DNA of 52,001 bases from Nemertoderma westbladi (Eukaryota; Animalia; Xenacoelomorpha): NCBI GenBank assembly GCA_032718475.1, contig JAUCBJ010007100.1:1-52001 (forward strand), written 5' to 3'. Each line of letters begins with the position of its first letter. Positions within the stretch are counted from its first letter, which is position 1. A model generated the notes under the pieces. That model was given only the letters and a program-made list of their open reading frames with translations. It was not told the DNA's origin and ran no database searches. Below, in pieces: positions 2,397-43,167 of this stretch. A program made the position numbers and the translations under genes.

Positions 2397-2519
2397 GGCG
2401 GCAGGTGCAGGGTGTGTGACTATGGTGCGGATTTCGGGGGACGGGAGTGACTGGGTAGTGGAGTTGATGGGTGCGAGTGTGGTAGGAAGGAGGAACAGAC
2501 GTGCGAGTTGCTTTGGATG

Positions 2520-3450: not shown

Positions 3451-3592
3451 AGCGAGGAAAGCGCTTGAGAAACCTCAGCTTTATGCTTGCCAGGGTTCGG
3501 GAACGAAGTTCGGTCCCGTACCGTTGCTGGACGAGTCGTGCTGTCGTGGGAGATCCGGATCGATCAGACGAAGCCAAACTAAGACGATAAAG

Positions 3593-8231: not shown

Positions 8232-11200
8232 ATGTCGTCATCTGCCAGTGATATTATTCTCAGAAAAAAACTTTCCCCCTCCGCTTCAAACAGAGGGAAA
8301 CATTTTCCACGTAAGTCGAGGTCCAATATCAATTATTATAGTCCCGAAATTGCGAGTGATTCGGATTTTGAAGCCGATATTCGGTCTTCATCAATTAATG
8401 TTGCAAATTCGCACCACAAAACTAAAATCAGTCGACGGACTGAAAACAAACCATCCTCTGATGAGAGTGATTCAGATTTCGAATATATAAAACGAACTGA
8501 TTCATCGAAAAAAGTTACCGCCACTCGAGATTGTCCAAAACGACAATCTAAATCGAGAAATATTAACCACAATTTGGATAACTATGGCTCTATTCGTTCA
8601 TTAAGTGACACCGTCGAACCGATGAATCGCTCTTTGCGGAAATCTAGGGAAGTCAGTTATCGCGAACTGAGTGACGAGGAGGATATCATCTCATCCAACT
8701 TGGGGAGTCTTTCTTTAGTAAAACGATCTCCATTAATAACTGCATTACCTCTCAATGATAGAAAGCAGATTACTGGGGCGAGCGGAGGTCGCACCTTGAA
8801 GGCTCACGAGAACGTCTACGATTTTGAATCTTCCGATGATTTTAGCGATGGGGGTGGTCAGTTTGGGGTTAATAGTTCGGCTAATAAAACGCGAAGATCT
8901 GCAGCGAACTCAGCTCCCAGGGGTTTCAGGAACTTCCGTTTAACCAACAACATTGGCGATCCTACGGATAATACGAACGAGTTGGTGGAGGCGACATTGT
9001 CTGTTGGTATCGGGATTTATCAGAACGTTGTAGAGAACAGGGATGATAATGGGGTTGGTAACAGGGTGAATACCGGTAATGGGGTTGGTAAAAGGGTGTA
9101 TAATGTGGTTGGTAACAGGGTGGATAATGGGGTTGGTAACAGATGGGCTAATGGGGTTGGTAAAAGGGTGGATAATGGGGTTGGTAAAAGGGTGGACAAT
9201 GGGCTTGGTAACAGGGTGGATAATGGGGTTGGTAACAGGGTGGATAATGGGGTTGGTAAAAGGGTGGATCCCCGGGTTGGTAACAGGGTGGATAATGGGG
9301 TTGGTAACAGGGTAGATATCCCTTCCGATAAGGAATACCGGACTCCACAAAGGACTCTACGCGGGCGTTCAGTAGCTAAATCCAGCATCACCCTGCGTAA
9401 CAGCGTCACGATCGCGACTCCGTTGGAGGATACTGTTGCTATGGATTCGGACCGGGATCTCAGGACACTTCGGGACTCCGCCCGGGGAAAGTCCCCGCTA
9501 CCGGGAAGGAAAACTCCCCGTAAAGCCGCCAAGGTTCCTGAATTTATTAGTCCGCCTCGGGTCGATTTGGTTTTGGATCGGGAGGATATAAGTCCGAGAC
9601 GGAAAGCGTACCCGAGGCGGACCGGAAGTGGAGGGAGACTGACCGGAAGTGGAACTGTCGGGACTCCCAGTCGAGTTCGCTTCACGAACCCATTAATAGT
9701 CCCGGACAGACGACTGGAAGTCCCGGACACCCCCTCTCGTCAGGGTGGCGAGGACACCCCCTCACGTCCGGGTGTCCGGGACACTCCTTCACGTCTGGAT
9801 GTCCGGGACACCCCCTCACGTCCGGGTGTCCGGAACACTCCTTCCCGTCTGGATGTCCGGGACACTCCCTCCCGTCCGGTTGTCCGGGACACTCCATCCC
9901 GTCCGGAATCTCCGGACACCCCCTCCCGTCCGCTGCTTTCCCAAAGACCCCCGCGCTCTACCAAGAAGCCGGTGGACTACACCGCCAAGGACTACTGGAA
10001 CACCTCGGGGATATTCGCCCTAGAACGGAAGATCCAGTCCCAAAGAGAACGGAAGCGACTGCGACTCCCGTCCGCCGTCCACGGTGACGCCGATGAGTTC
10101 AGCGACGAATCTGATGACGTCACCACGGACGGTTCGATGACGTCATCATCAGACGATACGGACGATCGGTTGGATAAATCGTGTTCTATATCGCCGCCGA
10201 AAATACCGAAACTATGTGGCGCCTTGGATTCTGTGTTAACGACCGAGCGCGCTAGGAAGGGTACACGGGGGCGCGGTGGGGTCGCCAAAGGGCGAGGTAG
10301 TAAGTCCGCCGTCACCCCGAGACCAACCGACCGTAGAGGAACCGACTTACCCCGTAGATCGACGACCTTCACCGACCCCGCAACCCCAATAGGGCGGCTT
10401 CGCCAGAGCCTCCATGTAGCGGCGGTGCCAGACGCGCTGCCGTGTCGGGAACGCGAGACGCAGCAGATCCGACGGTTCGTTGAGTCACACCTCTTGGGCG
10501 GCGGCGGCGGCTGTATGTACATCTCGGGGGTCCCGGGTACCGGGAAGACCTCCACGGTGCTGGCCGTGGTCTCTGCGTGTCGCGACGCCCCGCATCTACC
10601 CGCCTTCCGATTGGTCCACGTGAACGGGATGTCGCTGACGGCCCCCGCCCAGTCCATGGTGGCGATCCACGAGCAGCTGACCGGCGAGCGGCTCGCCGCC
10701 GACGCGGCCACCGAGCGGCTACAGACGCGGTTCTCCGCGGCTCGTAAACGGCGGGACCGTCCCGTTCTCCTCGTCGTCGACGAGTTGGATCTCCTCCACA
10801 CGCCGCGGCAGCACGTCATCTACAACATCTTTGAGTGGCCGATTCTCCCCCACAGCGGCCTCGTTGTTCTGGCGATCGCCAACACGATGGATCTCCCGGA
10901 GCGCGCGCTCAACCGGATCTCGAGTCGCGTCGGTTTCTCTCGCGTCGTCTTCCAGCCCTACACGTTCCGACAGCTCAAGGAGATTGTGGCGTCCCGCGTA
11001 GCCTCTGGTGGCGGCGCTGTGGCGTCCAGTGGCGCGGTGTTCAATGATGACGCGATGGAATTGGCGGCGCGCAAAGTGGCCGCGCAAACCGGAGACGCGC
11101 GACGCGCACTCGATATATGTCGACTGGCGGCGGAGATTGCGGAACGAGAGTCGGTCGCTATAGGGACCGGGGGGGTTGCTAGGGAACCTGGAGCGGAACG

Positions 11201-11621
11201 GAGGAAAACGCGAGTTGCCAAGGCAACCGTGGTTGCCAAGGAGACCTCCGAGATTCGCGTTGCTATGCGGCATGTTAACGCGGCCTTAGACGAGATGTAC
11301 AGCTGCCCGATGGTGCTGGCTGTACAGCAATCCTCTATTCTAGAACAATACTTCCTGAAGGCTATGGTTGCGGAGTTCCGACGCACCGGATTGGAGGAAG
11401 CCGAGTTGGCGGTGGTGCGTCGCCAGATGGCGTCGCTCTGTAGACTGGAGGGCTTCCCAGCACCGCTGGAGGGAGTTGTGTTCTCGGTGTTGGATGGGTT
11501 GTTCAGTCGACGAGTTGTGTTAGTGGAACCTGGACCCGCCCACCAACACCAGCGAATCAGATTCAATCTTAGTATCGATGACGTCACTTACGCCCTTAAT
11601 CATAATAAAGTTTGTTTATAA
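8232..11621 (+). CDS. ORC1: Origin recognition complex subunit 1 (AAA+ ATPase plus winged helix), single exon, 1129 aa
   Basis: [29 protein letters not shown] (Walker A), [11 protein letters not shown] (Walker B), [53 protein letters not shown] and a C-terminal [13 protein letters not shown]. These are ORC1-type rather than CDC6-type motifs. Long low-complexity N-terminus. Confidence 0.95.
9044..9316 (+). repeat. Coding 24-bp minisatellite in ORC1 (DNGVG[NK]RV x11)
   Basis: GGATAATGGGGTTGGTAA(C/A)AGGGT units, in frame. Confidence 0.9.
9720..9931 (+). repeat. Coding 27-bp minisatellite in ORC1 ([DN]TPSRxxxx x8)
   Basis: GTCCGGGACACYCCYTCMCGTCYGGRT units, in frame, with frequent third-position variation. 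Confidence 0.9.
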
Positions 11622-13187: not shown

Positions 13188-14399
13188 CTTTACAGCATCG
13201 TTCCGGAGTCGGAATTCCCCGGAGTTTACACTTTACAGCATGGTTCCGGAGTCGGAATTCCCCGGAGTTTACACTTTACAGCATGGTTCCGGAGTCGGAA
13301 TTCCCCGGAGTTTATCACTTTACAGCATCGTTCCGGAGTCGGAATTCCCCGGAGTTTACACTTTACAGCATCGTTCCGGAGTCGGAATTCCCCGGAGTTT
13401 ACACTTTACAGCATGGTTCCGGAGTCGGAATTCCCCGGAGTTTACACTTTACAGCATGGTTCCGGAGTCGGAATTCCCCGGAGTTTACACTTTACAGCAT
13501 GGTTCCGGAGTCGGAATTCCCCGGAGTTTACACTTTACAGCATGGTTCCGGAGTCGGAATTCCCCGGAGTTTACACTTTACAGCATGGTTCCGGAGTCGG
13601 AATTCCCCGGAGTTTACACTTTTCAGCATGGTTCCGGAGTCGGAATTCCCCGGAGTTTACACTTTTCAGCATGGTTCCGGAGTCGGAATTCCCCGGAGTT
13701 TACACTTTACAGCATCGTTCCGGAGTCGGAATTCCCCGGAGTTTACACTTTTCAGCATGGTTCCGGAGTCGGAATTCCCCGGAGTTTACACTTTTCAGCA
13801 TGGTTCCGGAGTCGGAATTCCCCGGAGTTTACACTTTACAGCATGGTTCCGGAGTCGGAATTCCCCGGAGTTTACACTTTTCAGCATGGTTCCGGAGTCG
13901 GAATTCCCCGGAGTTTACACTTTTCAGCATGGTTCCGGAGTCGGAATTCCCCGGAGTTTACACTTTACAGCATGGTTCCGGAGTCGGAATTCCCCGGAGT
14001 TTACACTTTACAGCATGGTTCCGGAGTCGGAATTCCCCGGAGTTTACACTTTTCAGCATGGTTCCGGAGTCGGAATTCCCCGGAGTTTACACTTTACAGC
14101 ATGGTTCCGGAGTCGGAATTCCCCGGAGTTTACACTTTACAGCATGGTTCCGGAGTCGGAATTCCCCGGAGTTTACACTTTTCAGCATGGTTCCGGAGTC
14201 GGAATTCCCCGGAGTTTACACTTTTCAGCATGGTTCCGGAGTCGGAATTCCCCGGAGTTTACACTTTTCAGCATGGTTCCGGAGTCGGAATTCCCCGGAG
14301 TTTACACTTTACAGCATGGTTCCGGAGTCGGAATTCCCCGGAGTTTACACTTTTCAGCATGGTTCCGGAGTCGGAATTCCCAGGAGTTTACACTTTACA
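13188..14399. repeat. Homogeneous 43-bp minisatellite, ~28 copies
   Basis: Unit TTT(A/T)CAGCAT(G/C)GTTCCGGAGTCGGAATTCCCCGGAGTTTACAC, head-to-tail with no spacers. Confidence 0.97.
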
Positions 14400-15978: not shown

Positions 15979-17788
15979 TAAAGTTCATTGTTTATTGCCT
16001 AGATAACTACAATTCAATTCCAACTAAAATAGTGTAGCGCCGACTGCCGACAATATACTGAATGATATCTATTACTATTCGGCCATTATAGGATTGAATA
16101 ATAACAATTTCTGATATTTAATTTATTCTTTATTTATAATAAAATGGTAAACAATAGCGCAGAAATTGACAGCAATACAACAAAATTATGTTTTTTCTTC
16201 TGGAGAATAACAACGCAATCAATATGAATAACATTGTTGTAAAGTAGATTACAGCTAATAAATACGTTATTAAATAAAACTTGAAAAACAGCTGTCTTAA
16301 CTATAAAAAGTACGTAACAAAAACATATAAATAACAACTCTAGTATATAGCACAAAGCCTATATCACACTGCCTTTCCAATATACACTTCAAAAAATATT
16401 TAACCTTTCTACATTTCACCATCTGGAATATAGTGTTTTAATTCAGATACATGGACATTAAAAATCTAAATAAAAAATAAAAATTCTGACACCATCCAGT
16501 AAGGAATGGGGTGATCAAACAATGTCTGTTCAATTTCATTTAGAAGCTTTCTATAAAGGTTATGGGGAGGGGGCGGAGTGGGGTACAGAATTAATGCACT
16601 ATACTCCAGGAGAAATAAACCAAACACACACATGGGCCCTTCGCGCTGCACATGAAGAGAAACCAGCTAGCTTAATTTATTTACAAATCCATGCAAGTGT
16701 TATCACTCACAAATTATTATTACTTCTATAATGTTTTATAGTGTTTCGTACTTTTATAATGTTTCGAAGTTGGATTTGTGTGAATAACAATTTAAACATT
16801 ATTTTACGACCAAGGGGAAGGGGGTATAATATAAACAGAAGGGCACAGTATCTCGAACATGGTCGTAAACGTACCCAATCTTGTAGGCCTAGCCTAGCTA
16901 TACGGTAGTGGGTCTAGCTTACTGCTATAGTAGGTCTAGCCTACTGCTATAATATGTCTAGCCTACTGCTATACAGTAGTAGGCCTACAGTGATTTAGTT
17001 AGTACAGTGCCTTTAGTGACTTAGTGCTGATTTAGGTATTCCATACCCGTTTCATGCAGCGAGTTTGAATTGAATACCGGCACTCAATTATATTTGATTG
17101 ATAATATAGTATTACGATTATGGCAGGCGAGTCACTTTGCATTAAACTTCCAGACATTGACTTTGTATTTACCGTTTATTATATTAAACAATTAAGCAAA
17201 TGGGCAGTTAACCGCACCCACCTGTCTCGGAATAGAGTTAAATATCTTATACACACTTTGATGTTTGAAGAGATTCAAAATAGAACATTTTTATGTTCAT
17301 TTTTCTTTAAATCCTTCTAATGTTATTTAATTGGTAGCTAAGGTGATAGATAGAATGCGTCATCTTAGCTACTAATGATGTGCAAAATGTCACATTAGTT
17401 ACACCGAGTGTCCCAAACCCATATCTTCTACCCAGGAATTAATTTTATCCATAAAATTAATTGCTTAGGTTTACTGTCACTGTCAGTCCAGTCTGTCTGT
17501 CCGTTCTTGTCAGATTATCCATGTTCGAATATATAATATTTACATTAAATATAGTTCGCAAACAGTAAATAAAATAAATCGAGTCGATTTACAAAACCGA
17601 GTTGTTAATTAATAGTTCCGTTTGAATTCCAACTGTCGTAGAAACAGGCTATACTGGCCCCCTCGCAATTAATAATTCCAAGTTTAGCGATTTGAAATAA
17701 TTAATGTTCGGAGGTTGATAGTTAGGTTGGCGGACGTTGAAAGGAATTGATTAATGGAAATGTTGTAATGATCCACTTTATTTTCTTC

Positions 17789-20700
17789 TTATGCTTTATT
17801 TATCACCCATTCCCCGGGGTGGAACATCTCAGGAAGTTCCTTTTTGTATGCTTTCCTAAAAATTAAATTTTAAATTTATTATTAAAAAAAAAAACGTTGG
17901 CCTATTAGAGGGTGGATTGGTATGCCTTGCCAATATTTGTTAAGGTTTTGATCATTTCACATCTATGGAATGCACACGATATACAAATATAACATATAAT
18001 ATTGTGGAGATATATATTAAAATAGCGAAAATATAGATGTGTGCTTGAAACTACATGAAAATAGAAAGTTCACAATAAAATTACTACGAATGTTATCCTA
18101 CTGGCCTCCGATAACTTCCGAGTAACTCCTAAAAAGACAAGTGAAACCTGTTCTATTGATTTTCGTTTATTGTTTTTGTCAGAATGAGAATAGAGTGACA
18201 ATGAAGCCTACTTCTTCCGTTTTAAAATTAATATACGGGATTTGAATCAAGTTACAACCCCCCCCCCCCCCCCCCCCCCCCCCTCCTTACCCCCAGACTC
18301 AATGGATAAGATCTCGCTATGCGATGCCTAAATCCTACTAGAAGATCCTTAACGTGTCTACTGGGATTGTGTATTAATTAATATTCCAACGAAGAGGGTG
18401 GGTAGCAGCACAACGTCTGTGTAGTGTGTAACAACCACTTAGTATGCCTGTAATTCCTTAAGATCAGCATAACATCGCAGTAAGGGGGTTGCCGCCGATC
18501 TACTGCCATCAATGTACCGATATTTAACGATTTACCATATAATTATTTAACCAACAGCTGCTGCTCTTCTCCAATCCTAAACGCCCATACATCAATAATT
18601 ATAATAATAATTCCACCGCGCTAGGGTTCACTAGGTTACATGGTTGAGACATCCGTAGTACTTGTGGTGCATTATAGTACCCACTCAACCCCCCCCCCCC
18701 CCCCCCCCCCCGGAGGATTCTACGGGGGGGGGGGGGGGGGGTGGCTTTTACCATATATTATAGTTCCCGGCAGACACATAGTAGATAACGAACGCAAGTC
18801 TATCCAAGGTGGTGTGGGAGAGGGGGGGGGGGTACTTAATTCCTACTTAATTACTTTTTAATTATAATGCGTGTTTATTATCCATACATAATGGAATAAT
18901 TAATAAATAAAAATAGGCCACCGATAAGATTAAAATTTACAATCAAAAGTTTAAAGTCAATAAAATTCCATATTCAGATTGGTCGGTCTAGGTAAACTAA
19001 CTGTAGAGCAAGATGTAAGTCCATCCAGTGATGGAAATCACACCCGCTTGAAACTTTGACACATTTCTCAAAATCTTTACCTAATAATGCATCATCGATT
19101 CTGACGTACCATCTCACCAACAGTAGAACCCTAACCGAAGATATTCTGGAAACTCATCCAAACATTTTTGATAGCTCAATCTCTATGGTAAACCCTTATC
19201 GCGAGAAACGAACAGAGAGGGAAGATAACTTTTCCAATAAGTATTACCTATCTGGTTCCGCCTTTACCTCATATAAATGGAGGTCATCCAACCAACACAA
19301 TAGGCATATTGTTTGTTACACAGTCGACGTGCAAGCCATCGTCAGAGACGACGGCTCATGATTATGTCCACTAGGTTTGAAAAACAACGATACCTACCTT
19401 TTCCTACGATACTTATAACTATTGGGACTGAAAAATGGAGTTCATATTCGTGTTGGGCAAGAAAAACTGGTCAAGAAAAGTTAATTTAATATTGCATGCT
19501 TGAAGGGATTATTCCTATTGGTTTGAGTGTACTTTAAATTACATAATTTATGGAATCACATTTTGGTTGGTTATTTTAGGTTTTACTGGGTTCTTTGTTT
19601 TTTTTTCGGTTATTTTGGGAGTTTAATAGGGCCAGTGACCCTCAAAGAAAGTGCAGTATATTCTCACATTAGTTTAATGACATGTTGAAATGAACCAAAC
19701 CTTAATCATAGAATCAATAAATGTGCAGTTATAACTATAACCCGATGTTTACTTACTTTTTATTACTTACTTTGTTATCGTATCGCCTTTGGATTCTTCT
19801 AACATTTTGTTTAGGATGTCCTCTTCATCTTCACTCATCTCGAGATGTTCCACAGAATCGCGATGGACTTCACTTTTGACTTCTATCGGGCCATTTTCAG
19901 GTCTGCGGCGTTTCTCGTCTGGATTTGAATCTGTTAAATAAATAAAACAATATAGATAGTTAATGTCATGGGGAATTAATTAAGTTCTATACCGTTTAGG
20001 CCTTATTTAAAACTAGTGACGTCAGAGCTGCAACAGCCAATCAGAGCCGATTTCCATTCACTGCGTGTTGGTGTGCAGGTTCTACGCACTCGTAGGTTCT
20101 ACTCACTGCGTGGTGGCCCGTAGGTTCTACTCACTGCGTGGTGGCCCGTAGGTTCTACTCACTGCGTGGTGGCCCGTAGGTTCTACTTACTGCGTGGTGG
20201 CCCGTAGGTTATACTCACTGCGTGGTGGCCCGTAGGTTCTACTCACTGCGTGGTGGCCCGTAGGTTCTACTCACTGCGTGGTGGCCCGTAGGTTATACTC
20301 ACTGCGTGGTGGCCAGTAGGTTCTACTCACTGCCTGGTGGCCCGTAGGTTCTACTCACTGCCTGGTGGCCCGTAGGTTCTACTTACTGCGTGGTGGCCCG
20401 TAGGTTCTACTCACTGCGTGGTGGCCAGTAGGTTCTACTCACTGCCTGGTGGCCCGTAGGTTCTACTCACTGCGTGGTGGCCCGTAGGTTATACTCACTG
20501 CGTGGTGGCCAGTAGGTTCTACTCACTGCCTGGTGGCCCGTAGGTTCTACTCACTGCCTGGTGGCCCGTAGGTTCTACTTACTGCGTGGTGGCCCGTAGG
20601 TTCTACTCACTGCGTGGTGGCCAGTAGGTTCTACTCACTGCCTGGTGGCCCGTAGGTTCTACTCACTGCCTGGTGGCCCGTAGGTTCTACTTACTGCGTG

Positions 20701-23700
20701 GTGGCCCGTAGGTTCTACTCACTGCGTGGTGGCCCGTAGGTTCTACTCACTGCGTGGTGGCCCGTAGGTTCTACTCACTGCGTGGTGGCCCGTAGGTTCT
20801 ACTCACAGCGTGGTGGCCCGTAGGTTCTGCTCACTGCGTGGTGGCCCGTAGTTATACTCACTGCGTGGTGGCCCGTAGGTTCTATTTACTGCGTGGTGGC
20901 CCGTAGGTTCTACTCACTGCATGGTGGCCCGTAGGTTCTACTCACTGTCTGGTGGCCCGTAGGTTCTACTCACTGCGTGGTGGCCCGTAGGTTCTACTCA
21001 CTGCGTGGTGGCCCGTAGGTTCTACTCACTGCGTGGTGGCCCGTAGGTTCTACTCACTGCGTGGTGGCCCGTAGGTTCTACTCACTGCGTGGTGGCGCAT
21101 AGGTTCTACTCACTGCGTGGTGGCCCGTAGGTTCTACTCACTGCGTGGTGGCCCGTAGGTTCTACTCACTGCGTGGTGGCCCGTAGGTTTTACTCACTGC
21201 GTGGTGGCCCGTAGGTTCTACTCACTGCCTGCTGGCCCGTAGGTTCTACTCACTGCGTGGTGGCCCGTAGGTTCTACTCACTGCGTTGTGGCCCGTAGGT
21301 TATACTCACTGCGTGGTGGCCCGTAGGTTTTACTCATTGCGTTGTGGCCCGTAGGTTTTACTCACTGAGTGGTGGCCCGTAGGTTCTACTCACTGCGTGG
21401 TGGCCCGTAGGTTCTACTTACTGCGTTGTGGCCCGTAGGTTTTACTCACTGCGTGGTGGCCCGTAGGTTTTACTCATTGCGTGGTGGCCCGTAGGTTCTA
21501 CTTACTGCGTGGTGGCCCGTAGGTTCTACTCACTGCGTGGTGGCCCGTAGGTTCTACTCACTGCGTGGTGGCCCGTATGTTCTACTCACTGCGTGGTGGC
21601 GCATAGGTTCTACTCACTGCGTTGTGGCCCGTAGGTTTTACTCACTGCGTGGTGGCCCGTAGGTTTTACTTACTGCGTGGTGGCCCGTAGGTTCTACTCA
21701 CTGCGTGGTGGCCCGTAGGTTCTACTCACTGCGTTGTGGCCCGTAGGTTATACTCACTGCGTGGTGGCCCGTAGGTTTTACTCATTGCGTGGTGGCCCGT
21801 AGGTTCTACTTACTGCGTGGTGGCCCGTAGGTTCTTCTTACTGCGTTGTGGCCCGTAGGTTCTACTCACTGTCTGGTGGCCCGTAGGTTCTACTCACTGT
21901 CTGGTGGCCCGTAGGTTCTACTCACTGTCTGGTGGCCCGTAGGTTCTACTCACTGCGTGGTGGCCCGTAGGTTCTTCTTACTGCGTTGTGGCCCGTAGGT
22001 TTTACTCACTGCGAGGTGGCCCTAAGGTTCTACTTACTGCGTGGTGGCCCGTAGGTTCTACTCACTGCATGGTGGCCCGTAGGTTCTACTCACTGCGTGG
22101 TGGCCCGTAGGTTATACTCACTGCGTGGTGGCCCGTAGGTTCTACTCACTGCGTGGTGGCCAGTAGGTTCTACTTACTGCGTGGTGGCCCGTAGGTTCTA
22201 ATCACTGCATGGTGGCCCGTAGGTTCTACTCACTGTCTGGTGGCCCGTAGGTTCTACTCACTGCGTGGTGGCCCGTAGGTTATACTCACTGCGTGGTGGC
22301 CCGTAGGTTCTACTCACTGCGTGGTGGCCAGTAGGTTCTACTTACTGCGTGGTGGCCCGTAGGTTCTAATCACTGCGTGGTGGCCCGTAGGTTCTACTCA
22401 CTGCGTGGTGGCCCGTAGGTTCTACTCACTGCGTGGTGGCCCGTAGGTTCTACTCACTGCGTGATGGCCCGTAGGTTCTACTCACTGCGTGGTGGCCCAT
22501 AGGTTCTAATCACTGCGTGGTGGCCCGTAGGTTCTACTCACTGCGTGGTGGCCCGTAGGTTCTACTCACTGCGTGGTGGCCCGTAGGCTCTACTCACTCT
22601 CTGGTGGCCCGTAGGTTCTACTCACTGCATGGTGGCCCGTAGGTTCTACTCTCTGCGTGGTGGCCCGTAGGTTCTACTCACTGCGTGGTGGCCCGTAGGT
22701 TCTACTCACTGCGTGGTGGCCCGTAGGTTCTACTCACTGCGTGGTGGCCCGTAGGTTCTACTCACTGCGTGGCGGCCCGTAGGTTCTACTCACTGCGTGG
22801 TGGCCCGTAGGTTTTACTCACTGAGTGGTGGCCCGTAGGTTCTACTCACTGCGTGGTGGCCCGTAGGTTCTACTCACTGCGTGGTGTCCCGTAGGTTCTA
22901 CTCACTGCGTGGTGGCCCGTAGGTTCTACTCACTGCGCGGTGGCCCGTAGGTTTTACTCACTGAGTGGTGGCCCGTAGGTTCTACTCACTGCGTGGTGGC
23001 CCGTAGGTTCTACTCACTGCGTGGTGTCCCGTAGGTTCTACTCACTGCGTGGTGGCCCGTAGGTTCTACTCACTGCGTGGTGGCCCGTAGGTTTTACTCA
23101 CTGAGTGGTGGCCCGTAGGTTCTACTCACTGCGTGGTGGCCCGTAGGTTCTACTCACTGCGTGGTGTCCCGTAGGTTCTACTCACTGCGTGGTGGCCCGT
23201 AGGTTCTACTCACTGCGTGGTGGCCCGTAGGTTCTACTCATTGCGTTGTGGCCCGTAGGTTTTACTCACTGAGTGGTGGCCCGTAGGTTCTACTCACTGC
23301 GTGGTGGCCCGTAGGTTCTACTCACTGCGTGGTGTCCCGTAGGTTCTACTCACTGCGTGGTGGCCCGTAGGTTCTACTCACTGCGCGGTGGCCCGTATGT
23401 TCTACTCACTGCGTGGTGGCCCGTAGGTTCTACTCACTGCGTGGTGGCACGTGGGTTCTACTCACTGCGTGGCGGCCCGTAGGTTCTACCCACTGCGTGG
23501 TGGCCCGTAGGTTCTACTCACTGCGTGTTGGCCCGTAGGTTCTACTCACTGCGTGGTGGCCCGTAGGTTCTACTCACTGCGTGGTGGCCCGCAGGTTCTA
23601 CTCACTGCGTGGTGGCCCGTAGGTTCTACTCACTGCGTGGCGGCCCGTAGGTTCTACTCACTGCGTGGTGGCCCGTAGGTTCTACTCACTGCGTGGTGGC

Positions 23701-26700
23701 CCGTAGGTTCTACTCACTGCGTGGCGGCCCGTAGGTTCTACTCACTGCGTGGTGGCCCGTAGGTTCTACTCACTGCCTGGTGGCCCGTAGGTTCTACTCA
23801 CTGCGTGGTGGCCCGTAGGTTCTACTCACTGCGTGGCGGCCCGTAGGTTCTACTCACTGCGTGGTGGCCCGTAGGTTCTACTCACTGCGCGGTGGCCCGT
23901 AGGTTCTACTTACTGCGTGGTGGCGCGTAGGTTCTACACACTGCCTGGTGGCCCGTAGGTTCTACTCACTGCGTGGTGGCGCGTAGGTTCTGGTTGGTGG
24001 TTCCGGTGAATCTTCCTCGTACATCTGCCGTTGTAATCTCTCCCTTTCACCGTACGAATCATCTTCGTACCTAAACCTTTGTCTCTCTCGCTCCCCGGAC
24101 ACCGGATTACCTCGGCCTCGAGAAACTTTACGAACAGTTGTTGAATCGGGATTATTCCTTCTGAAAGATAATAATATATTTAATTAATACGAATTATATT
24201 AAAACGAACTTAACTACCTAATAGGTAGTTAAAAAGGGGTTTAAAAAGTTAGTTGAAAAGTTGTTCTCTTTAGCGATTTGAGTTTTGTCTGAGGTCCGAG
24301 ATTTATGTTTTCTAACTGCTGAATATTCATCATGAAGTGCTTTTAGTTTAGCTACAGCGTTTGGCTTTTGTGTTGTTGGCACATTTGCCTTATATAACAG
24401 AATCACTTCATTTATTGTATTAGAGTATCCTACAGGTTTAGTCAGTTTGTTTACTCGAAGATCATAAAATAGTCGACGAAGGACTTGTCCTATAGTAGGA
24501 AGCTGCCAAGGGCTTTCTTCAGACAGAGAAACAGTAGGCTGACCAATGATCCATATTGCAGTAGATGAACGAGTTTTGTGCAATTCTGTGGTAATAGTAG
24601 CCATGTTTGTTAATATATAATTTGATGCAATGTAGGTAGGACCTATCGGATATAATAATCGGACCTTAAGTTTCCGATTCATTCTCGGTGACTTCCAAAT
24701 CCTGGAAAGCCTATTCAAGGCTGCCCATGCCTTTCCCTTACGTATTCGAAGGTCCTCACCTGACTTCCGGATCCATGATCCCAGGTAACAGAAGTCGTCC
24801 ACATGCTCAAGCATACCATCCTTTGAGCTTATGCTCATCCGATCAGAGACTTGCTGAGGACTTTCAAAGTTAACTGTCAAAATTTTGGTCTTTCTGGAGT
24901 TAATAAAAAGACCAACACTAGAAGCAGCATGTTCTAATGAGCTGAGGAGCCGTTGGTCTCCCTCTAATGATTCTGAGAGTACTTATTTGTTTTCATTTCT
25001 TGTGGGAGCTTTAAATACTCAGGTATTTTAAAGACCGCAGGGGGAACACCATCTACTCCACTGGCACGATTGGTCTTAATGCTCTTTGCAGCAGCCTTCA
25101 CTTCTGCAAAGGAGATATCGCCAATGGGAATATCTGGGAGTACAGACTCAGACACTTTTACTTCTATAAAGTTATCAGGCAATACCCTGTCATTATTGAG
25201 GAGCTTTTCAAAGTGGGCTTTCCAACCATTGAGGCGATCGGCTGGTGATTCAGCCTTAACCTTGGTGGTTGGTTGGCTTTTCTGCCCAGTAAGCAAATTG
25301 ATCGATTTCCATGCCTGGGATGATTGCCTGCTGTCGTCAGCATCATTGATGGCATCAACCTGTTGGTTTATTAGCTCCTGTAGATTATCAGAGTACTGCC
25401 TGTTCAGGGACCTAGATGCAGCCTTAACTGCATTCTTGGCCGCTGTAGTCTGTTTGAGTCGGGACTCTTTCTGCGCCTTATGAAGGTCATTTCGGCATTT
25501 CTGAATTTTGTTGTCAGTCCAGGGGGCCCTTTTCCTGTTTCGAGGGTATACAGTAACTGTTTCTGCAGCTGCTAACTTAACTGCTTCTGTAAAGGCAGTA
25601 TAGCCCTCACAGTGACCTGCCGCCTCAGAGGCAAGAGCTTCATACCTGTTGCTCAGATGTAGTGTGAAGCTGGATCTCACACTTGGCTGTTGCAACAGAG
25701 AGGACCAGTCATGCCGCGGCAAGGCAGATTTCGTTGTTCTGCTAGCACGCAGACTAAGTCTTACCTTGAAAACATTCAGTCCGCGGCAAGCCGATTTTAG
25801 GGCATTCATTGTAATATAGGAAATATAGGTTTTCTTTTTGGAGTTATTACAGCCCTGGTGACTAACTGAGAAAACAAAACAGGTTCTTTTTTATCCTAGA
25901 CCAGTACTACATGACCGCTGTGGTGTAGTTGGTTGCGGTTTTTTGTAGTTACTTCAGTACTTACCTAGGCCTATTTTTGTATTTTTTTATTGTAACATGT
26001 AAGTAAATATAAGCAACTGTATGTAGTCGGTGTGGTTTCTGTCCGTTTTGTTTGATTTATATCCTGAAGATGGCCCTAGTGGCAGAAATTAATTGATAAT
26101 AAAGAACCTGTTTTGTTTTCTCAGTTAGTCACCAGGGCTGTAATAACTCCAAAAAGAAAACCTATATTTCCTATACTGTATAAGTCTTACCTTGGCCACA
26201 ATAAGGCGGTGATCACTGGAGAAGGGTCGAAGTGTAAATGCATTACAGTCTTGTATAGAGCTCCTGTATTTCCTACGAAACAGAATATGGTCTATCTGGG
26301 ACTTGTGACCACAGGGTCCACTATGAGTCCATAGCTTTCCAGTTCGCTTCTTGAACTGGGTTCCAGCCGAAAACAATCCATTTCCAGAGATAAAATCCTG
26401 AAGATGGACAGAATTTCGGTTAACACTATTGCTATAGACCCAGGGCGATGTAGGTGATTGATGCAGACTTGCATTAAAGTCTCCCAGGAATGTTAAGAAT
26501 GCATGCTGATCCACTCCATCAGTAGCTGCTTGTAGATTGTGGTAGAAATTTTCCACCTCCTCTACAGGGGCAACACTAGTTGGAGAGTAGCACACAATCA
26601 GAACCACCTTAGGAAACTTCTTAGCCAGTCTTCCAGAACATGAGAAGTGGCAACGGATGATGCAGTTAGAGATTTGGTCTATTTTGTCCAATGCTGCATG

Positions 26701-29700
26701 TGCAGTTGGATTCATCAATAGACCATTTCCACCATTGCCACTATCATCTGCTGACGCGAGGGCGAGTCGCCAACCGCCCCCCATGTCCTTAATCAGAACC
26801 TCATCAGTCTGTCCAGTCTGCATTCGGTGCTCTTGAACACCCACTGCCCTAAGAGAAAGCTTATCTGCCAAGGCAGTCAGCTCACCTTGTCGCATTGGGG
26901 ACCCGAGTGTTAGGGTGTTTACTGAGGCTAGTCTAGTGACTTGCCTCAGATTCACCAATGGCTTTGTTGGTCGGGGTGGAACATGAGAGTAGCCTCCAAC
27001 TCCAGAATCCCTCTCCCCATCACAATCTGGCCTCCCTGGTGACCCAGGGTTTGGGCCAGAAAGGTCATCAGGAAAGGGACTCAAAGAATTGTTGGCTGCT
27101 CTCTCTCCAGTAGGGGATGAGACAGGCAGCGGGTCAGGAGTTAACTGACGCCTGTGAGGCCGATTGTGTCCGGTAATTCCACTGGCCTCTAGTGGCCGGA
27201 CCTCGCATTGCTAATGTAATCCATTGTGGGGGTTGGGTGTGCTTTTTTGCCGAGTCAGCTCTCGGGGCAAGTACCACACCCTGGTTTGCCATTCCACAGG
27301 GTGGTTGTCGCAATGGAGTCAGATATGAGGCGCATCACCCATATCTACTCTGGGGTAAATTGCAGTGTACTATAACATACACCGGTACAACAGACATTGT
27401 GGCCCCGTTGTGACAACAAAGTCACAATTGCAACACAGTCACTGTATCTAGCTAAGATATTTTGAAATTACCAATTAACTAAAAATGGCCGATTCAATGA
27501 AGAAGACCTCAATGTCAATTTTGACTCTTCTTTCCGTAATACAAAGTATTTTTTTACATTTTTTTTTATTTTTTTTACAAAGTATTTTTGGTCTCATTCA
27601 AACCGCAATGGCCGATTTAGTGGGGGTAGATGTGGTTATCAAAGTCTTACAACCATTTTTACCAATTCACCAAGTCTTTCTAAGTCTACAAGTGTTCAGC
27701 GGTTCGCGGTAAAAATTGCAAATCGAAAATGCCTTTGGGGGGTGGTTCAACGTCAAAATTTTGGTATGGTATAATGATAAAATATTGTTATTTTTGCATT
27801 TGACACAAAATGGGAGGGTATGCCAAAACAAATTCCAACTTTTTTTTTCCTCTATGGAAAGTGACCCACTCTACTACCTATGCCAAACTATAGTAAAATA
27901 ATACTGATAATTATTGCTTGGAATAATTATTAGTTTTTTCTCGATATATTCTGCAAGATATGTTGGTTGGTCCAACTGCGCACCAGAAAAAGGTTATACA
28001 TTCAATGATTGTATGAAATGTGCAGTACAGGTCTGGAGCCCCCATCCAGCAGAACTGTAGTCCTAAACCTACATAAAAGGTATCATTATACTAGGGCTAG
28101 TATACTATTATTATTATAAGAGTTCGCTTATGGCTCACAATTGTGACTCGCCCCACCACAGTAACCCCCCCCCCCCCCCCCTCGTCAAAGAATTCCAGGA
28201 ATTTGATCAAAGACATTAAGGCACTCATTGAGTACAATACTGTTAGTTCTGCTGCCTCACTGTTCCCGAACTAATAACAAATTTCCTGTTCCATAGTTAT
28301 TTCCTTATATTAACTCATTGCTGGAATAATGGCAAGAATAAACGTAGCTGGGGTTCAATATGTGTTGAGTAAGAAATCGTTGGGCGCGCATCAACGACAG
28401 ATCAATCGATATCGCAACAGGCCTCCGTTTGTCTCATCCGGAGGCATCTGTTCGCAACCAATAGCTGGAACTGCGGGAGCACGGAATATGCCGCCGGTGA
28501 TTGTCGGAGTAGTAAACTTGGGTATCCCACGGTGCGCGTTGCTTTAATCTACGTACCTACCGTTAGGAAGCTCAAAGCGGTGGGATAATCGACACTAATC
28601 GACTTATACTAAATGAGAGAATCACAGAAATGGATACGTTTATACGGCGATATTCTTACAAAGTGGTTTTTAATTAAAACTGCGCTTTATTTTAATGGAG
28701 GATCTATCTCAGCAGGAATTTGAATTTAAGAGTTTGAAATGACAATAAATTGCTAACGTGATCGAAATATCGTTCATAGTTAAGTACTGTAGTCTGGCAG
28801 TATTATCGAATATTATACACAATTATGGTGCAAGTGTGACATGTGAGTTGGAGTATACACATTACGTATGAATAACAGTTGTCTACAAATGAGGACTGCG
28901 CCCGCCGTTACTAAACACATTCAAGATTCACTAGCTATCTATGATGATAATAAACCAGGTCAAACACGCTTTGATTTGTCTCTCTATACAGTATATGTAA
29001 GCTTCAAAATTAGTAGGCATTAACAAATTGGTATGATTTATTTGAAGACCGTTAGGGCTTGTTGCTGTCAAAAAACGTATGTTTGTTTGTCTGGATGTTT
29101 GTGCACTTTGATAATTGGTTTGAAATGTTTTTGGTAAGGGCTGATTTCACCGGTGCCTGTCTTCCGAAATATGGATTATGATATATTGGTATGATATACA
29201 GTTCACCAAACTGTACAATCACATACTTTCAAAAAAAAATGTTCGATGATTGGTTCTCGAGATATCATAAAATTACATTTAATTGCTTTAATCGCAGGAC
29301 ATTGCTTTAGCCGTGAGGACCTGCCAGTGCATAATCTTGTGCTTTGGCAGCCTCATGGAGTGAATAAGCATGGTGGACAGCCCCCCATGACTTTCTTTCG
29401 TGAGACGCATCTTAAAGGACACTGGCCTTGAAGATGCGGACGATCTAGCAAATTTCATGGGTGATAGGGAGTTGTGGCGGCGCAATTTTGTCGACAAGCC
29501 CGCACAGCATTCTTAAAAATGCAGCTGCAATGCAGCATGCCGATCCTAGTAGTAGTAGTAACATTTAATTAGAAGACCGGTAGTGTTTCCTTGTTGAGAG
29601 GTCGTGTATTATCTGTCGAATATCTATGTCTTAAGGGCTGACGGTCTTCTTATAGCCAGCTTGCTGGCTTTCTAGTATTATAAAAACCGCCACTAATTGA

Positions 29701-32700
29701 TTAATTAGTATTATTATACTTTGGTATTATTGCTTTAACCCTATTAGTACCGGGCTATAAAATGTTGTACAAATACCGGGGGGGGGGGGGGGGGGGGGTC
29801 ATATTGACCCCCCCCCCCCCCTTCTAAAATCTACAAATATTTACGAAAACGTCTTATTTTTTGTTTGTACGTAGGTATCACTAGTCTGGATCCGACCGAA
29901 AAAAAATTTTTCGAAAAAATGTACTGGGGTGGTTATATTGCAGCACCAAAATTACAAGTAGTGCACAATTTTCACAAAATTTGAAAGTTACATTTTCGGC
30001 TAATTATTTTTCAATACAGGTTTTCTGGGGTGCAAAATACATTGGAAAATATTAAAAAATGATATGATTACTATAAATGGCTGTTTAGTTCTCTCTGCGT
30101 AGGAAAAAAATGAAAAAAACAAGTAACCAGCACTTTTCAGTTAGAACACAAAATTTTTAATTCATTTATACGATGCTATAAATTCAAATTTTCAGGTTTT
30201 CGAGGGCGCTGATTCTAATGGAATACATTTCCAATATGCCAGATCATTGGTACGTGTATTTTTCGGCGTAATTTGGCAAATTTTGGTGCTAGCACCAAAT
30301 TTCGTACCCATCACCAAAAAGTACAAGTTTGCTATGTCCAGTGCTGTTTTTATTGACTCCATCGGATTCAGGACCCTCATAAACCCGTATAACGCAAGAA
30401 ACAAGGTGATACTATCTACTTATCAATTTGCATATTTACTAAAATTTGGTGCTGGCACAACAATTTTCACCCACCGGCGAAAAATACAAGTTTGAGAACT
30501 CTTATGAAATTTTTACTGATTCCATTGAATTCAGAACCATCACAAACCCGTATAACGCAAGAAACAAGCTGACACAATCAATTGATATATTTGATGGTTT
30601 TCAAAATTTGGTGCTAGCACCACATTTTGCACCCACATCCGAAAAATACAAGTTTGAGATGTCTAGTTCGATAATTATATTTTCCATTGAATTCAGAACA
30701 GCCATAAACCTCTAAAACGCAAGAAATAAATTGTCACAAGCAATTTTATCTATTGAATGGATTTTCAAAATTTCGTGCTAGCACCAAAATTTGCACACAG
30801 CACCGAAAAATACAAGTTTGATACGCTTGGTGCAACTCGTATATATTTCATCGAATCCAGAAACCCAAAAAACCCCATTTGCTTAAAAAACAAGTTTCAA
30901 ACGTTCAATTTACAAAATTGACTTATTTCAAAATTTGGTGCTGGCACCACCGAAAAAAACAAGTTTGAAATTTCTAAATCAATTTATATGAATTCCATCA
31001 AATTTCTAAAACCAAAAAAGCGGTGTAAATAAAAAATAGAGATGTTACAATTCATATTTAATGAAATGTAATTTTCAAAAAACGTCTCAAAAAAAGTGCC
31101 AAAAGTAGGGTATGGTGCTATAACTCGAAAAGTACCCAATATTTTTGAAAACGGTCTTCACTACTAGGAAGACAAAAGATTTTTAGGAAAAGTCATAAAA
31201 TTTCAGATTCCCAACTGCGTTTGTTTCAGAATTATAATAAAAAAAACCACGGGGGGGGGGTCATATTGACCCCCTCCCCCGGGTTTAATAGGGTTAAGTG
31301 TACATATTTTGGTGTATGGTTACATTTTATGGTGTATATTTATTGAATATATTATATATACCCATACTGTAATGACTATTTCATGTATTGATTGGGGAAA
31401 TTCCAGGGTCATGATTGCAAAATTTGATGGGAATCCAAAGACAGCATTAATATGTTGCTACAGTCCAACTGATGCATCAGAGCCAGTCGATTCAATATAA
31501 CGGTATACAATAAAAGCCCACAAGGAACCAGCCAAGATGCTTATTCTCCAGATACCCTAACGAAAACAGTATATGCCATGGCAAGACTGGTCACTTGATT
31601 GGGAGGTTACTTGTAAGAGAGAAGATCTCAAGATAGCCTACAAAGCAAAAACTAAACAACCAACAACCAAAAACATCAACAAGGTTGAGAAAACGAAGGA
31701 AGATTTTAAATTGACTGCTCACATACAGCAACAATCAACACTTATCTGGCAAACTGTTAATGTGGTACCTGGTCGGAAAAGTTGTGCTAAGGAGCGCCTA
31801 AAAGTGATAGTCCTGAAGAAGGTGTTGGGAAATGGAAACATCACTTCAGCAACTTGCTTGGACAGTGTCCTTTAAGATGCGTCTCAAGAAAGTCATGGGC
31901 TGTCCACCATGCTTGTAGCAATAACCTGCAACCCAGTCTAGTACTTGGTCGCGCAACTTAGAAGTCGTAGCGCTGTATTTACAGTAGTATTCGCATATGG
32001 TCAATGTTATTTTATGGGCTAGGCAGGTCTGAAAACAACATTATTTTTACAACTATTTAACATGCATCTCATCAGTCCCCATTAACAATTAATTTATCTT
32101 TTTATAAACCGTTTGTACGCTTTACTAAGGACAGAAGATGTAATTCCTTGTTTGTGTGGCGTTGGATAAATCGTACTTGTTTTATTTGAATGGCAAAAAG
32201 GGCGTGGTTTACTCAGTTAATTTTATAACAGTTTAGGCGATGTTGCCAATTTAACGCCAATCCCTGAATACAAGTGGCTATCGGTATATGGTAAATAGAT
32301 ATATTGTCGTCACCAAGGTTGCGTTTGGAGTTAAAAGCGATAATAAGGCTGCTATATGCAATGCATGTAGCATAAATATTTTCTACGAGACTTTGAATGC
32401 ACTCGGTATTGCAGAGGGAATGCAATCAGCATGGTAGTGGTAATGCACTCGGTATTGCAGATGGAATGCACTCACTATTGCAGAGGGAAAGCAATCAGTA
32501 TGGTAGCAGGAATGCACTCAATATTGCAGAGGGAATGCACTCAGTAATGTAGCGGGAAAGCACTCAGTATTGTAGCGGGAATGCACTCAGTATTGTTGCG
32601 GGAGGCACTCAGTATTGTTGCGGGAGGCACTCAGTATTGTTGCGGGATGGACTCAGTATTGTTGCGGGATGCACTCAGTATTGTTGCGGGATGGACTCAG

Positions 32701-35700
32701 TATTGTTGCGGGATGCACTCAGTATTGTAGCGGGATGCACTCAGTATTGTAGCGGGATGCACTCAGTATTGTTGCGGGATGGACTCAGTATTGTAGCGGG
32801 AATGCACTCAGTATTGTTGCGGGAATGCATTCAGTATTGTTGCGGGATGCACTCAGTATTGTTGCGGGATGCTCTCAGTATTGTTGCGGGATGCACTCAG
32901 TATTGTTGCGGGATGCGCTAATTATTGTTGCGGGATGCACTCAGTATTGCAGAGGGAATGCAATCAGTATTGTTGCGGGAAGCACTCAGTATTGTAGCGG
33001 GATGCACTCAGTAATGTAGCGGGATATGCACTCAGTATTGTAGCGGGATGCACTCAGTATTGTTGCGGGATGCACTCAGTATTGCAGAGGGAATGCACAC
33101 AGTATTGCAGAGGGAATGCACTCAGTATTGTAGCGGGAAAGCACTCAGTATTGTAGCGGGAATGCACTCAGTATTGTTGCGGGATGCACTCAGTATTGTA
33201 GCGGGATGCACTCAGTATTGTAGCGGGATGCACTCAGTATTGTTGCGGGATTGACTCAGTATTGTAGCGGGAATGCAATCAGTATTGCAGAGGGAAAGCA
33301 ATCAGTATGGTAGCGGGATGCACTCAGTATTGTAGCGAGATGCACTCAATATTGTAGCGGGATGGACTCAGTATTGTAGCGGGAATGCACTCAGTATTGT
33401 TGCGGGATGCACTCAGTATTGTAGCGGGATGCACTCAGTATTGTAGCGGGATGCACTCAGTATTGTTGCGGGATGGACTCAGTATTGTAGCGGGAATGCA
33501 CTCAGTATTGTTGCGGGAATGCACTCAGTATTGTAGCGAGAATGCACTCAGTATTGTTGCGGGATGCACTCAGTATTGTAGCGAGATGCACTCAATATTG
33601 TAGCGGGATGGACTCAGTATTGTAGCGGGAATGCACTCAGTTTTGTTGCGGGATGCACTCAGTATTGTTGCGGGATGCACTCAGTATTGTTGCGGGATGC
33701 ACTCAGTATTGTTGCGGGATGCACTCAGTATTGTTGCGGGATGCACTCAGTATTGTTGCGGGATGCACTAAGTATTGTTCCGGGATGCACTCAGTATTGT
33801 TGCGGGATGCACTCAGTATTGCAGAGGGAATGCAATCAGTATTGTAGCGGGAAAGCACTCAGTATTGTTGCGGGATGCACTCAGTATTGTTGCGGGATGC
33901 ACTCAGTATTGTTGCGGGATGGACTAAGTATTGTTCCGGGATGCACTCAGTATTGTTGCGGGATGCACTAAGTATTGCAGAGGGAATGCAATCAGTATTG
34001 TAGCGGGAAAGCACTCAGTATTGTAGCGAGAATGCACTCAGTATTGTTGCGGGATGCACTCAGTATTGTAGCGAGATGCACTCAGTATTGTTGCGGGATG
34101 CACTCAGTATTGTAGCGGGTGCACTCAGTATTGTTGCGGGATGCACTCAGTATTGTTGCGGGATGCACTCAGTATTGTAGCGGGATGCACTCAGTATTGT
34201 TGCGGGATGCACTCAGTATTGTTGCGGGATGCACTCAGTATTGTAGCGGGATGCACACAGTATTGTAGCGGGAATGCACTCAGTATTGTTGCGGGATGCA
34301 CTCAGTATTGTTGCGGGATGCACTCAGTATTGTAGCGGGATGCACTCAGTATTGTAGCGGGATGCACTCAGTATTGTTGCGGGATGGACTCAGTATTGTA
34401 GCGGGAATGCACTCAGTATTGTTGCGGGAATGCACTCAGTATTGTAGCGAGAATGCACTCAGTATTGTTGCGGGATGCACTCAGTATTTTAGCGAGATGC
34501 ACTCAGTATTGTTGCGGGATGCACTCAGTATTGTAGCGGGATGCACTCAGTATTGTAGCGGGATGCACTCAGTATTGTTGCGGGATGCACTCAGTATTGT
34601 TGCGGGAAGCACTCAGTATTGTAGCAGGATGCACTCAGTATTGTAGCAGGATGCACTCAGTATTGTAGCGGGATGCACTCAGTATTGTTGCGGGATGCAC
34701 TCAGTATTGTTGCGGGATGCACTCAGTATTGTAGCGGGATGCACACAGTATTGTAGCGGGAATGCACTCAGTATTGTTGCGGGATGCACTCAGTATTGTT
34801 GCGGGATGCACTCAGTATTGTAGCGGGATGCACTCAGTATTGTAGCGGGATGCACTCAGTATTGTTGCGGGATGGACTCAGTATTGTAGCGGGAATGCAC
34901 TCAGTATTGTTGCGGGAATGCACTCAGTATTGTAGCGAGAATGCACTCAGTATTGTTGCGGGATGCACTCAGTATTTTAGCGAGATGCACTCAGTATTGT
35001 TGCGGGATGCACTCAGTATTGTAGCGGGATGCACTCAGTATTGTTGCGGGATGCACTCAGTATTGTTGCGGGAAGCACTCAGTATTGTAGCAGGATGCAC
35101 TCAGTATTGTTGCGGGATGCACTCAGTATTGTTGCGGGAAGCACTCAGTATTGTAGCAGGATGCAGTCAGTATTGTAGCGGGATGCACTCAGTATTGTAG
35201 CGGGATGCACTCAGTATTGTAGCGGGAATGCACTCAGTATCGTAGCGGGATGCACTCAGTATTGTTGCGGGAAGCACTCAGTATTGTAGCGGGATGCACT
35301 CAGTATTGTTGCGGGATGCACTCAGTATTGTAGCGGGATGCACTCAGTATTGTAGCGGGATGCACTCAGTATTGTTGCGGGATGGACTCAGTATTGTAGC
35401 GGGAATGCACTCAGTATCGTAGCGGGATGCACTCAGTATTGTTGCGGGAAGCACTCAGTATTGTAGCGGGATGCACTCAGTATTGTTGCGGGATGCACTC
35501 AGTATTGTAGCGGGATGCACTCAGTATTGTAGCGGGATGCACTCAGTATTGTTGCGGGATGGACTCAGTATTGTAGCGGGAATGCACTCAGTATCGTAGC
35601 GGGATGCACTCAGTATTGTTGCGGGAAGCACTCAGTATTGTAGCGGGATGCACTCAGTATTGTTGCGGGATGCACTCAGTATTGTTGCGGGAAGCACTCA

Positions 35701-40308: not shown

Positions 40309-40339
40309 TTAGTGTGTTGATTCTGTGATCTATTAATAA

Positions 40340-43073: not shown

Positions 43074-43167
43074 TATAATATAATATAATAATATATAATA
43101 TAATATTTCCCAATTGGGTGGGAAATAAGCTGGACATCGTATAAAGTTATTATTATTTCGCAGTAAC

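What the first reader, a model, noticed from the sequence alone, without database searches (positions are those of the whole stretch)
19771..24160. A ~140-copy minisatellite built from an exon/intron junction: a tandem array of 5' splice sites
Seen: on the minus strand the 28-bp unit is AGAACCTACGGGCCACCACGCA|GTGAGT. It is continuous with the coding exon 24160-23970 (..PPTRTYAPPR|gtgagt), so the exon's last 22 nt plus its donor were amplified to fill ~3.9 kb of a ~4.0-kb intron. A recurrent variant is GTAAGT, also a consensus U1 site, while the unit adjacent to the true donor is weakened (GTGTGT). Only the first donor is productive: it joins in phase to exon 19930-19771, whereas reading past it hits an in-frame TAG (CGC AGT GAG TAG). 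Inference: the array could be a copy-number-tunable poison-splicing/NMD rheostat, a U1 snRNP sink, or a natural test of how the spliceosome picks one donor among ~140 near-identical ones. It may also be a neutral expansion.
Basis: partly seen in the sequence, partly recalled or inferred. Interest (0 to 1): 0.85.

Follow-up and report, generated by a model that had tools for sequence, protein, structure and literature searches.

The report
Splice-donor minisatellite fills an intron
In an animal genome, the end of a predicted exon and its splice signal are repeated about 140 times in the next intron; the extra signals mutate as freely as the rest of the repeat, so this is likely a harmless example of a repeat type already known from human and lancelet genes.

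Summary
A 28-bp unit (22 nt of predicted exon end plus GTGAGT) is repeated 139 times, then one partial and one decayed copy, filling 3,914 of 4,039 intron bases. The two flanking exons join in frame, and every later donor would keep an in-frame TAG. The gene has no identified homologue, and donor use was not checked against RNA.

The functional readings are not supported. The donor hexamer is no more conserved than the rest of the unit (9 of 36 variant types in 6 of 28 positions, p=0.55), five copies lost GT, and a weak unit 2 has about a 1-in-10 chance (14 of 139 are weak).

The class is published: human F7, IFI6, CBS, LMNB2, PDGF, ABCA7 (12-427 units; use of its second donor did not track length) and lancelet "mirages". 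This scan has noted such arrays before, in other genes of this genome (up to about 2,100 copies) and in other genomes. Verdict: new member of a known kind, likely neutral, likely spliced at the first donor. Still open: why this genome duplicates splice donors so often; the next donor here also has a two-copy duplication.

The parts
23970..24160 (-). Predicted upstream exon E1 (191 nt, phase 2 in, phase 1 out), acidic/basic low-complexity peptide, no known family
   Evidence: T-rich acceptor ending CAG, open frame, GC 51% against 22% in the upstream intron; no Pfam or homologue hit
23964..23991 (-). Repeat unit 1: last 22 nt of E1 plus the predicted authentic donor GCA|GTGAGT; 1 nt from the array consensus
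23962..23964 (-). In-frame TAG formed by the unit 1/unit 2 junction; kept in any transcript spliced at a later donor
23936..23963 (-). Unit 2 with weakened donor GTGTGT (6 U1 pairs against 7; predicted to be the more paired)
23908..23935 (-). Unit 3 with GTAAGT, the nearest strong pseudo-donor
20056..23991 (-). Whole 28-bp minisatellite, 141 units (139 full, 1 partial, 1 decayed), 125 of 139 with intact GTRAGT, with 4-7-unit sub-repeats
20056..20100 (-). Decayed distal end: 17-nt partial unit and unit 141 (6 mismatches to consensus, 5 to unit 1; shares unit 1's C at position 11)
19931..20055 (-). Non-repeat intron tail (125 nt) with T-rich tract and CAG acceptor
19771..19930 (-). Predicted downstream exon E2 (160 nt, phase 1 in, phase 2 out, or ending at TAA if the donor is not used)
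   Evidence: no homologue
19749..19778 (-). Two-copy, 14-bp duplication of E2's end and its GTAAGT donor: a possible seed-stage array
   Evidence: TRF period 14, 2.1 copies, 93%; chance of a second GTAAGT within 20 nt about 0.007, post hoc
17789..17855 (-). Weak candidate last exon in matching phase (21 codons, then stop)
   Evidence: acceptor score only 1.2, one of 12 candidates listed, unverified

Best explanation
This is a 28-bp minisatellite whose first unit spans a predicted exon's 3' end and splice donor, likely born by a local duplication of that junction and expanded to about 141 copies by ordinary repeat turnover, and likely tolerated because the spliceosome would take the first donor and cut the other copies out with the intron. 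Shown: array anatomy, frame logic, sub-repeat blocks, a decayed distal end, and no extra conservation of the donor hexamer. Inferred: that E1 and E2 are real exons; that the ancestral intron was about 131 nt; that exon definition from E1's acceptor picks donor 1 (the most-upstream-site rule shown for human F7); that rare slips to donor 3 or later give a PTC transcript that NMD removes; that the array has no selected role.
For: Unit 1 runs seamlessly out of an open exon, and both terminal units share the exon's C at position 11 while the interior carries G. Variant patterns recur at lags 4-7 and 11 (8-11 matches of about 90 each, against 1 at lags 2 and 9), and the distal unit is decayed, the concerted-evolution pattern with excluded boundaries described for lancelet mirages (PMC3087553, passages). 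Donor positions mutate at the background rate, and GT is lost in 5 of 139 units. The window is repeat-rich: three arrays over 1 kb cover 16.5% of it, and the other two hold 0 and 1 GTRAG. Predicted folding does not single out donor 1 (rank 81, 47 and 45 of 139 in three settings), so position rather than structure is the likely selector. F7: only the most upstream of identical donors is used (PMC1557585). Lancelet mirages do not disturb splicing.
Against: The gene model rests on sequence signals alone: no homologue and no upstream exon were found in the window. The constraint test has little power (36 variant types, copies not independent) and cannot see selection on copy number. In IFI6 and CBS one or two downstream pseudo-donors are also used (PMC1557585 introduction). 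Thirteen units pair better with U1 than donor 1 by a simple count. At ABCA7, array length raises skipping of the next exon and lowers expression, so 'neutral' is not guaranteed.
Confidence: 0.72

Rival explanations
1. Array length changes the gene's output, as at ABCA7: longer alleles would raise skipping of E2 (160 nt, a frameshift) or leakage to donor 3 onwards (PTC), sending more transcript to NMD. This could be a selected rheostat or an unselected side effect.
For: Every later donor keeps the TAG at 23964-23962. 125 of 139 units keep GTRAGT. ABCA7: exon 19 skipping rose with VNTR size and expression fell (PMC5954066 section 21 and passages).
Against: No extra conservation of donors. At ABCA7 the second-donor isoform was 2 +/- 1% and was not affected by VNTR size. 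In F7 even strengthened pseudo-sites did not compete. 125 of 139 intact is typical of any 6-nt window in the unit (104-134 for the top two alleles).
Confidence: 0.13
2. The array did not come from the exon. A minisatellite that held GTGAGT by chance arose or landed here and the exon captured its first unit as a new 3' end; or E1 and E2 are not exons of an active gene.
For: No homologue for either peptide. No convincing upstream exon in the window, and transposon remnants abut E1's acceptor. Donor 1 has no exon-side U1 pairing (GCA).
Against: The exon pair is very unlikely by chance. No unit-like copy (9 or fewer mismatches of 28) elsewhere in the window and no exact copy in the metagenome collection. 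The blank searches say little: even this window's ORC1 core is at most 50% identical to any of the 120 listed hits, so the lineage is poorly covered.
Confidence: 0.1
3. The array works as a U1 snRNP sink or telescripting platform: about 125 U1 sites would load U1 on the nascent RNA and protect it from early cleavage or titrate U1.
For: 125 intact GTRAGT on the sense strand. U1 protection of nascent RNA is established (recalled, not from a call).
Against: Donors are not conserved. Most are predicted to be paired (median chance of +1..+6 being open 0.005-0.022). The intron would be about 131 nt without the array, so it needs no such protection. One gene's pre-mRNA cannot titrate the U1 pool (inference).
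Confidence: 0.03

Closest known systems
Human exon/intron-junction minisatellites: F7 IVS7 (37 bp x 5-9), IFI6/6-16 (25 pseudo-donors), CBS intron 13 (15-20 units), LMNB2 (100 bp x 10-15), PDGF intron 4 (81 bp x 16-18). PMC1557585: abstract, matching passages and Discussion read; the other genes are known to me only through its introduction and reference titles.
   Same: First unit spans the exon-intron boundary, so the donor is reiterated down the intron. LMNB2's array covers most of its intron, and in CBS a substitution in the second repeat limits alternative splicing (both from reference titles), as with unit 2 here.
   Different: About 141 copies against 5-26; 22 of 28 nt are exon-derived (F7: 4 of 37); invertebrate host gene unidentified; splicing not measured here.
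Human ABCA7 intron-18 VNTR (25 bp x 12-427). PMC5954066: passages and section 21 read.
   Same: Kilobase-scale array beginning at a donor; use of the next unit's donor gives a frameshift/PTC isoform subject to NMD; size range includes this array.
   Different: The ABCA7 unit starts at the GT and holds no exon sequence. Length effects (skipping of the next exon, lower expression) are shown there and untested here.
Lancelet 'mirage' minisatellites (Adh3, globins BflGb6/BflGb9, troponin C, PGBD5). PMC3087553 and PMC3902484: matching passages read; the original Adh paper (PMC117041) was not held.
   Same: Tandem copies of an exon/intron boundary in an invertebrate; concerted evolution with boundary units left out; reported not to disturb splicing.
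   Different: The globin arrays have 3-6 units of 150-160 bp; this one has about 141 units of 28 bp. Length instability is shown in lancelets and untested here.

Membership tests
Exon/intron-junction ('mirage', F7-type) minisatellite | Head-to-tail array with a minisatellite-size unit | tested here: met
   28 bp x 139.4, 94% matches
Exon/intron-junction ('mirage', F7-type) minisatellite | First unit spans an exon-intron boundary, so the splice site is reiterated | tested here: met
   Unit 1 = 22 nt of predicted E1 + GTGAGT; 125 of 139 units keep GTRAGT; exon pair beyond chance. Met at the level of sequence prediction.
Exon/intron-junction ('mirage', F7-type) minisatellite | Host exons belong to a transcribed, spliced gene | tested here: inconclusive
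   Strong signals and phase match; no homologue, in a poorly covered lineage
Exon/intron-junction ('mirage', F7-type) minisatellite | Splicing uses the first, or the first few, donors | not testable with these tools
Exon/intron-junction ('mirage', F7-type) minisatellite | Concerted evolution inside the array, with boundary units left out | tested here: met
   4-7-unit sub-repeats; distal unit 6 mismatches from consensus against block means of 0.75-1.45. Unit 1 is only 1 mismatch away.
Exon/intron-junction ('mirage', F7-type) minisatellite | Copy number varies between alleles | not testable with these tools
   One haplotype only; no genome held; no second copy found
Regulated poison-splicing (AS-NMD) element | The alternative splice choice introduces a premature stop | tested here: met
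   TAG at 23964-23962 is kept by every later donor
Regulated poison-splicing (AS-NMD) element | The alternative site is under sequence constraint | tested here: not met
   9 of 36 variant types fall in 6 of 28 positions, p=0.55; GT lost in 5 of 139; low power
Regulated poison-splicing (AS-NMD) element | Use of the alternative site is regulated and NMD-sensitive | not testable with these tools
   Needs RNA-seq with and without NMD inhibition
Recursive splice sites (ratchet points) | Acceptor AG directly followed by donor GT, after a pyrimidine tract (definition recalled) | tested here: not met
   In the unit the G of CAG is the G of GT, so there is no AG|GT, and the array is 12% T

The most novel reading that the evidence does not exclude
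This animal has a mutational process aimed at splice junctions, for example repair or slippage coupled to transcription or splicing, that seeds short duplications at donors and expands them into kilobase arrays across the genome. Two consecutive donors of this one gene would show two stages of it: 2 copies at E2 and 141 at E1. The exon's last seven codons and its donor would then evolve in concert with the array, and a collapse onto a defective unit (14 of 139 weak, 5 without GT) would damage the gene.
Probability: 0.2. Interest if true: 0.65.

Novelty: new member of a known kind. Interest (0 to 1): 0.2.

Why it matters
As a single locus it matters little. Donor-reiterating minisatellites are published for at least six human genes and several lancelet genes, and ABCA7 alleles are longer. 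It would add an invertebrate case showing that the first-donor rule copes with about 125 intact competitors. The larger question is at genome level: if arrays in this animal really are enriched at splice junctions beyond what tolerance and reader bias explain, that would point to an undescribed mutational mechanism and bear on intron expansion and intron gain by duplication. One window cannot show that.

Tried and rejected
Whole genome: none held, so no genome-wide enrichment test.

RNA: the one run search, on 17000-20060, listed no run. That is no evidence either way; only about 5% of the stretch I gave was predicted exon, at the tool's threshold, so the query was poorly chosen. No reads could be laid.

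Gene identity: E1 against longer proteins gave 0 of 18 candidates at E<=1; E1 in the Atlas gave no usable hit; E2 against 1.84 billion representatives gave 0; E2 against near-length proteins gave no candidate; Pfam gave 0 families for both. The ORC1 control shows why these blanks say little. An exon scan found no convincing upstream exon: 8 of the 10 candidates lay in retroelement ORFs and 2 were weak.

Structural masking as the selector of donor 1: rejected, donor 1 is not the most open. Selection on donors: not detected. Recursive splicing: motif absent. Coding role for the array: 89-96 stops per frame on the sense strand, 47-51 on the other. Dispersed element: no unit-like copy elsewhere in the window, 0 exact matches in metagenome contigs, no look-alike in the scan's notes by place or sequence.

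Literature: seven searches listed no genome-wide survey of junction-spanning arrays; judged from listings and, for PMC10078293, 12 passages. PMC117041 was not held. No supplements were read.
Full report
What is there. On the minus strand a 28-bp unit runs from 23991 to 20056. TRF reports 139.4 copies at 94% matches. Parsing gives 139 full units, a 17-nt partial unit and a decayed last unit, 141 in all. Unit 1 is the last 22 nt of a predicted 191-nt exon (E1, 24160-23970) plus GTGAGT. After the array come 125 nt of AT-rich intron and a predicted 160-nt exon (E2, 19930-19771). The intron is 4,039 nt and would be about 131 nt with one unit. E1 and E2 join without a stop in 1 of 3 frames; reading past donor 1 meets TAG at 23964-23962, which every later donor would keep.

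Are the exons real? Both have T-rich CAG acceptors and GTRAGT donors, are purine-rich (61% and 64%) and stand above the flanking intron in GC (51% and 42% against 22-34%). In window DNA outside repeats and long ORFs, an equally good upstream exon was found at 34 of 4,020 and 5 of 4,020 sampled positions, and a full downstream exon at 0 of 3,682 and 0 of 3,685. The matrices were approximate and recalled, the thresholds were set after seeing the real scores, and the positions overlap, so these are rough. No homologue was found for either peptide. As a control, the conserved core of the ORC1 gene in this window is at most 50% identical to any of 120 listed animal hits, so short disordered peptides from this lineage would not be expected to hit. 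No convincing upstream exon was found in the window, and the best candidate for a next exon (17855) has a weak acceptor. E2 could also be the last coding exon, since reading past its donor meets TAA at once. The gene is unnamed and its splicing unobserved.

Is the donor protected? Over 139 units there are 36 variant types; 9 fall in the 6 donor positions (7.7 expected, p=0.55). Per-unit mismatch is 3.5% inside and 3.3% outside. Donor-weakening types are 8 of 17 possible against 26 of 66 outside (p=0.59), and their copy numbers are not significantly lower (p=0.22). GTGAGT occurs in 113 units, GTAAGT in 12, and 14 are weakened, 5 of them without GT. The test is weak, because copies share ancestry, but it gives no sign of selection. 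A weak unit 2 has about a 1-in-10 chance on these counts, and unit 3 carries GTAAGT. By a simple count against the recalled U1 consensus, donor 1 makes 7 of 11 pairs, as do 113 of 139 units; 13 make 8. Local folding ranks donor 1 at 81, 47 and 45 of 139 for openness under three settings; unit 2 is predicted to be more closed. Neither strength nor structure singles out donor 1. Its position does.

How it grew. Variant units recur at lags of 4-7 and 11 units (8-11 matches of about 90 each, against 1 at lags 2 and 9), which marks block duplications. The distal unit is 6 mismatches from consensus, while block means are 0.75-1.45. The exon's C at position 11 survives in units 1, 3, 86, 104 and 141, with G in nearly all others. 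This fits a junction duplication followed by turnover in the interior (inference). The window is rich in such arrays: three over 1 kb cover 16.5% of it, and the other two hold 0 and 1 GTRAG. E2's own end and donor are duplicated once, 14 bp apart (about 0.007 by chance, post hoc).

What is known. Borensztajn et al. 2006 (PMC1557585; abstract, passages, Discussion) describe this class: minisatellites whose first unit spans an exon-intron boundary, in F7, 6-16 (IFI6), CBS, LMNB2 and PDGF. In F7 the pseudo-donors can work, but only the most upstream one is used; in 6-16 and CBS two more are used. [quoted passage not shown] De Roeck et al. 2018 (PMC5954066; passages and section 21) describe the ABCA7 VNTR, 12-427 units starting at the exon 18 donor: use of the next unit's donor gives a PTC isoform at 2 +/- 1% that does not track length, while skipping of the next exon does. 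Lancelet 'mirages' are the invertebrate precedent, reported not to disturb splicing (PMC3087553, PMC3902484; passages). I took the term and the first of these papers from the scan's notes and then read the passages. Those notes, unchecked by me, list 41 findings with these words in at least 22 genomes; in this genome all 8 notes shown, of 19 that fit, describe such arrays, up to about 2,100 copies, most reporting use of the first donor in assembled RNA. They are not independent support.

Verdict. A real, well-formed member of a known class. Most likely (0.72) it is a tolerated expansion spliced at donor 1. A length effect on E2 skipping or NMD, as at ABCA7, is possible (0.13); capture of a chance repeat or non-functional exons (0.10) and a U1 sink (0.03) are less likely. 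The open point lies beyond this locus: whether this genome duplicates splice junctions more often than tolerance alone explains. Seven literature searches listed no genome-wide survey of that. Interest 0.2.

Noticed in passing
window 8217-11621 (+): Uninterrupted 1,134-codon frame encoding an ORC1-like protein, apparently intronless, with 24-bp and 27-bp coding repeats in a long low-complexity N-terminal part. Its core is at most 50% identical to the 120 listed animal ORC1 hits. Could be a retrocopy or a fast-evolving ORC1.
   Followed up: partly
window 19749-19778 (-): The next exon's end and GTAAGT donor are duplicated once (14-bp period), a possible seed of the same kind of array.
   Followed up: partly
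window 13188-14399: 43-bp x 28 minisatellite, 98% matches. On the plus strand each unit holds an acceptor-like TTTACAG, but no exon was evident after it.
   Followed up: partly
window 32397-35881: 22-bp x 157 minisatellite, 90% matches, with only 1 GTRAG; no exon link seen.
   Followed up: partly
window 24700-27210 (-): Broken LINE-like element with an endonuclease domain (PF03372). By eye it is interrupted near 26180-25810 by a small insert with inverted ends of about 70 bp.
   Followed up: no
window 24218-24604 (-): 128-codon frame ending 58 nt before E1's acceptor; resembles the start of a DNA-transposon protein (recalled); only a weak, below-cut-off Pfam match.
   Followed up: partly
window 40329-42332 (+): Broken Penelope-like retroelement with a GIY-YIG match just under the cut-off; the element class is recalled.
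   Followed up: no
window 43129-44010 (+): 293-codon frame for a DXD glycosyltransferase (PF05704, PF04488), in one piece.
   Followed up: partly
window 30277-30821 and 51263-51999: Two copies of a dispersed element with internal 162/163-bp tandem units.
   Followed up: no
window 1832-3560: 21/42-bp minisatellite next to LTR-retrotransposon-like gag/protease fragments (the label is recalled).
   Followed up: no
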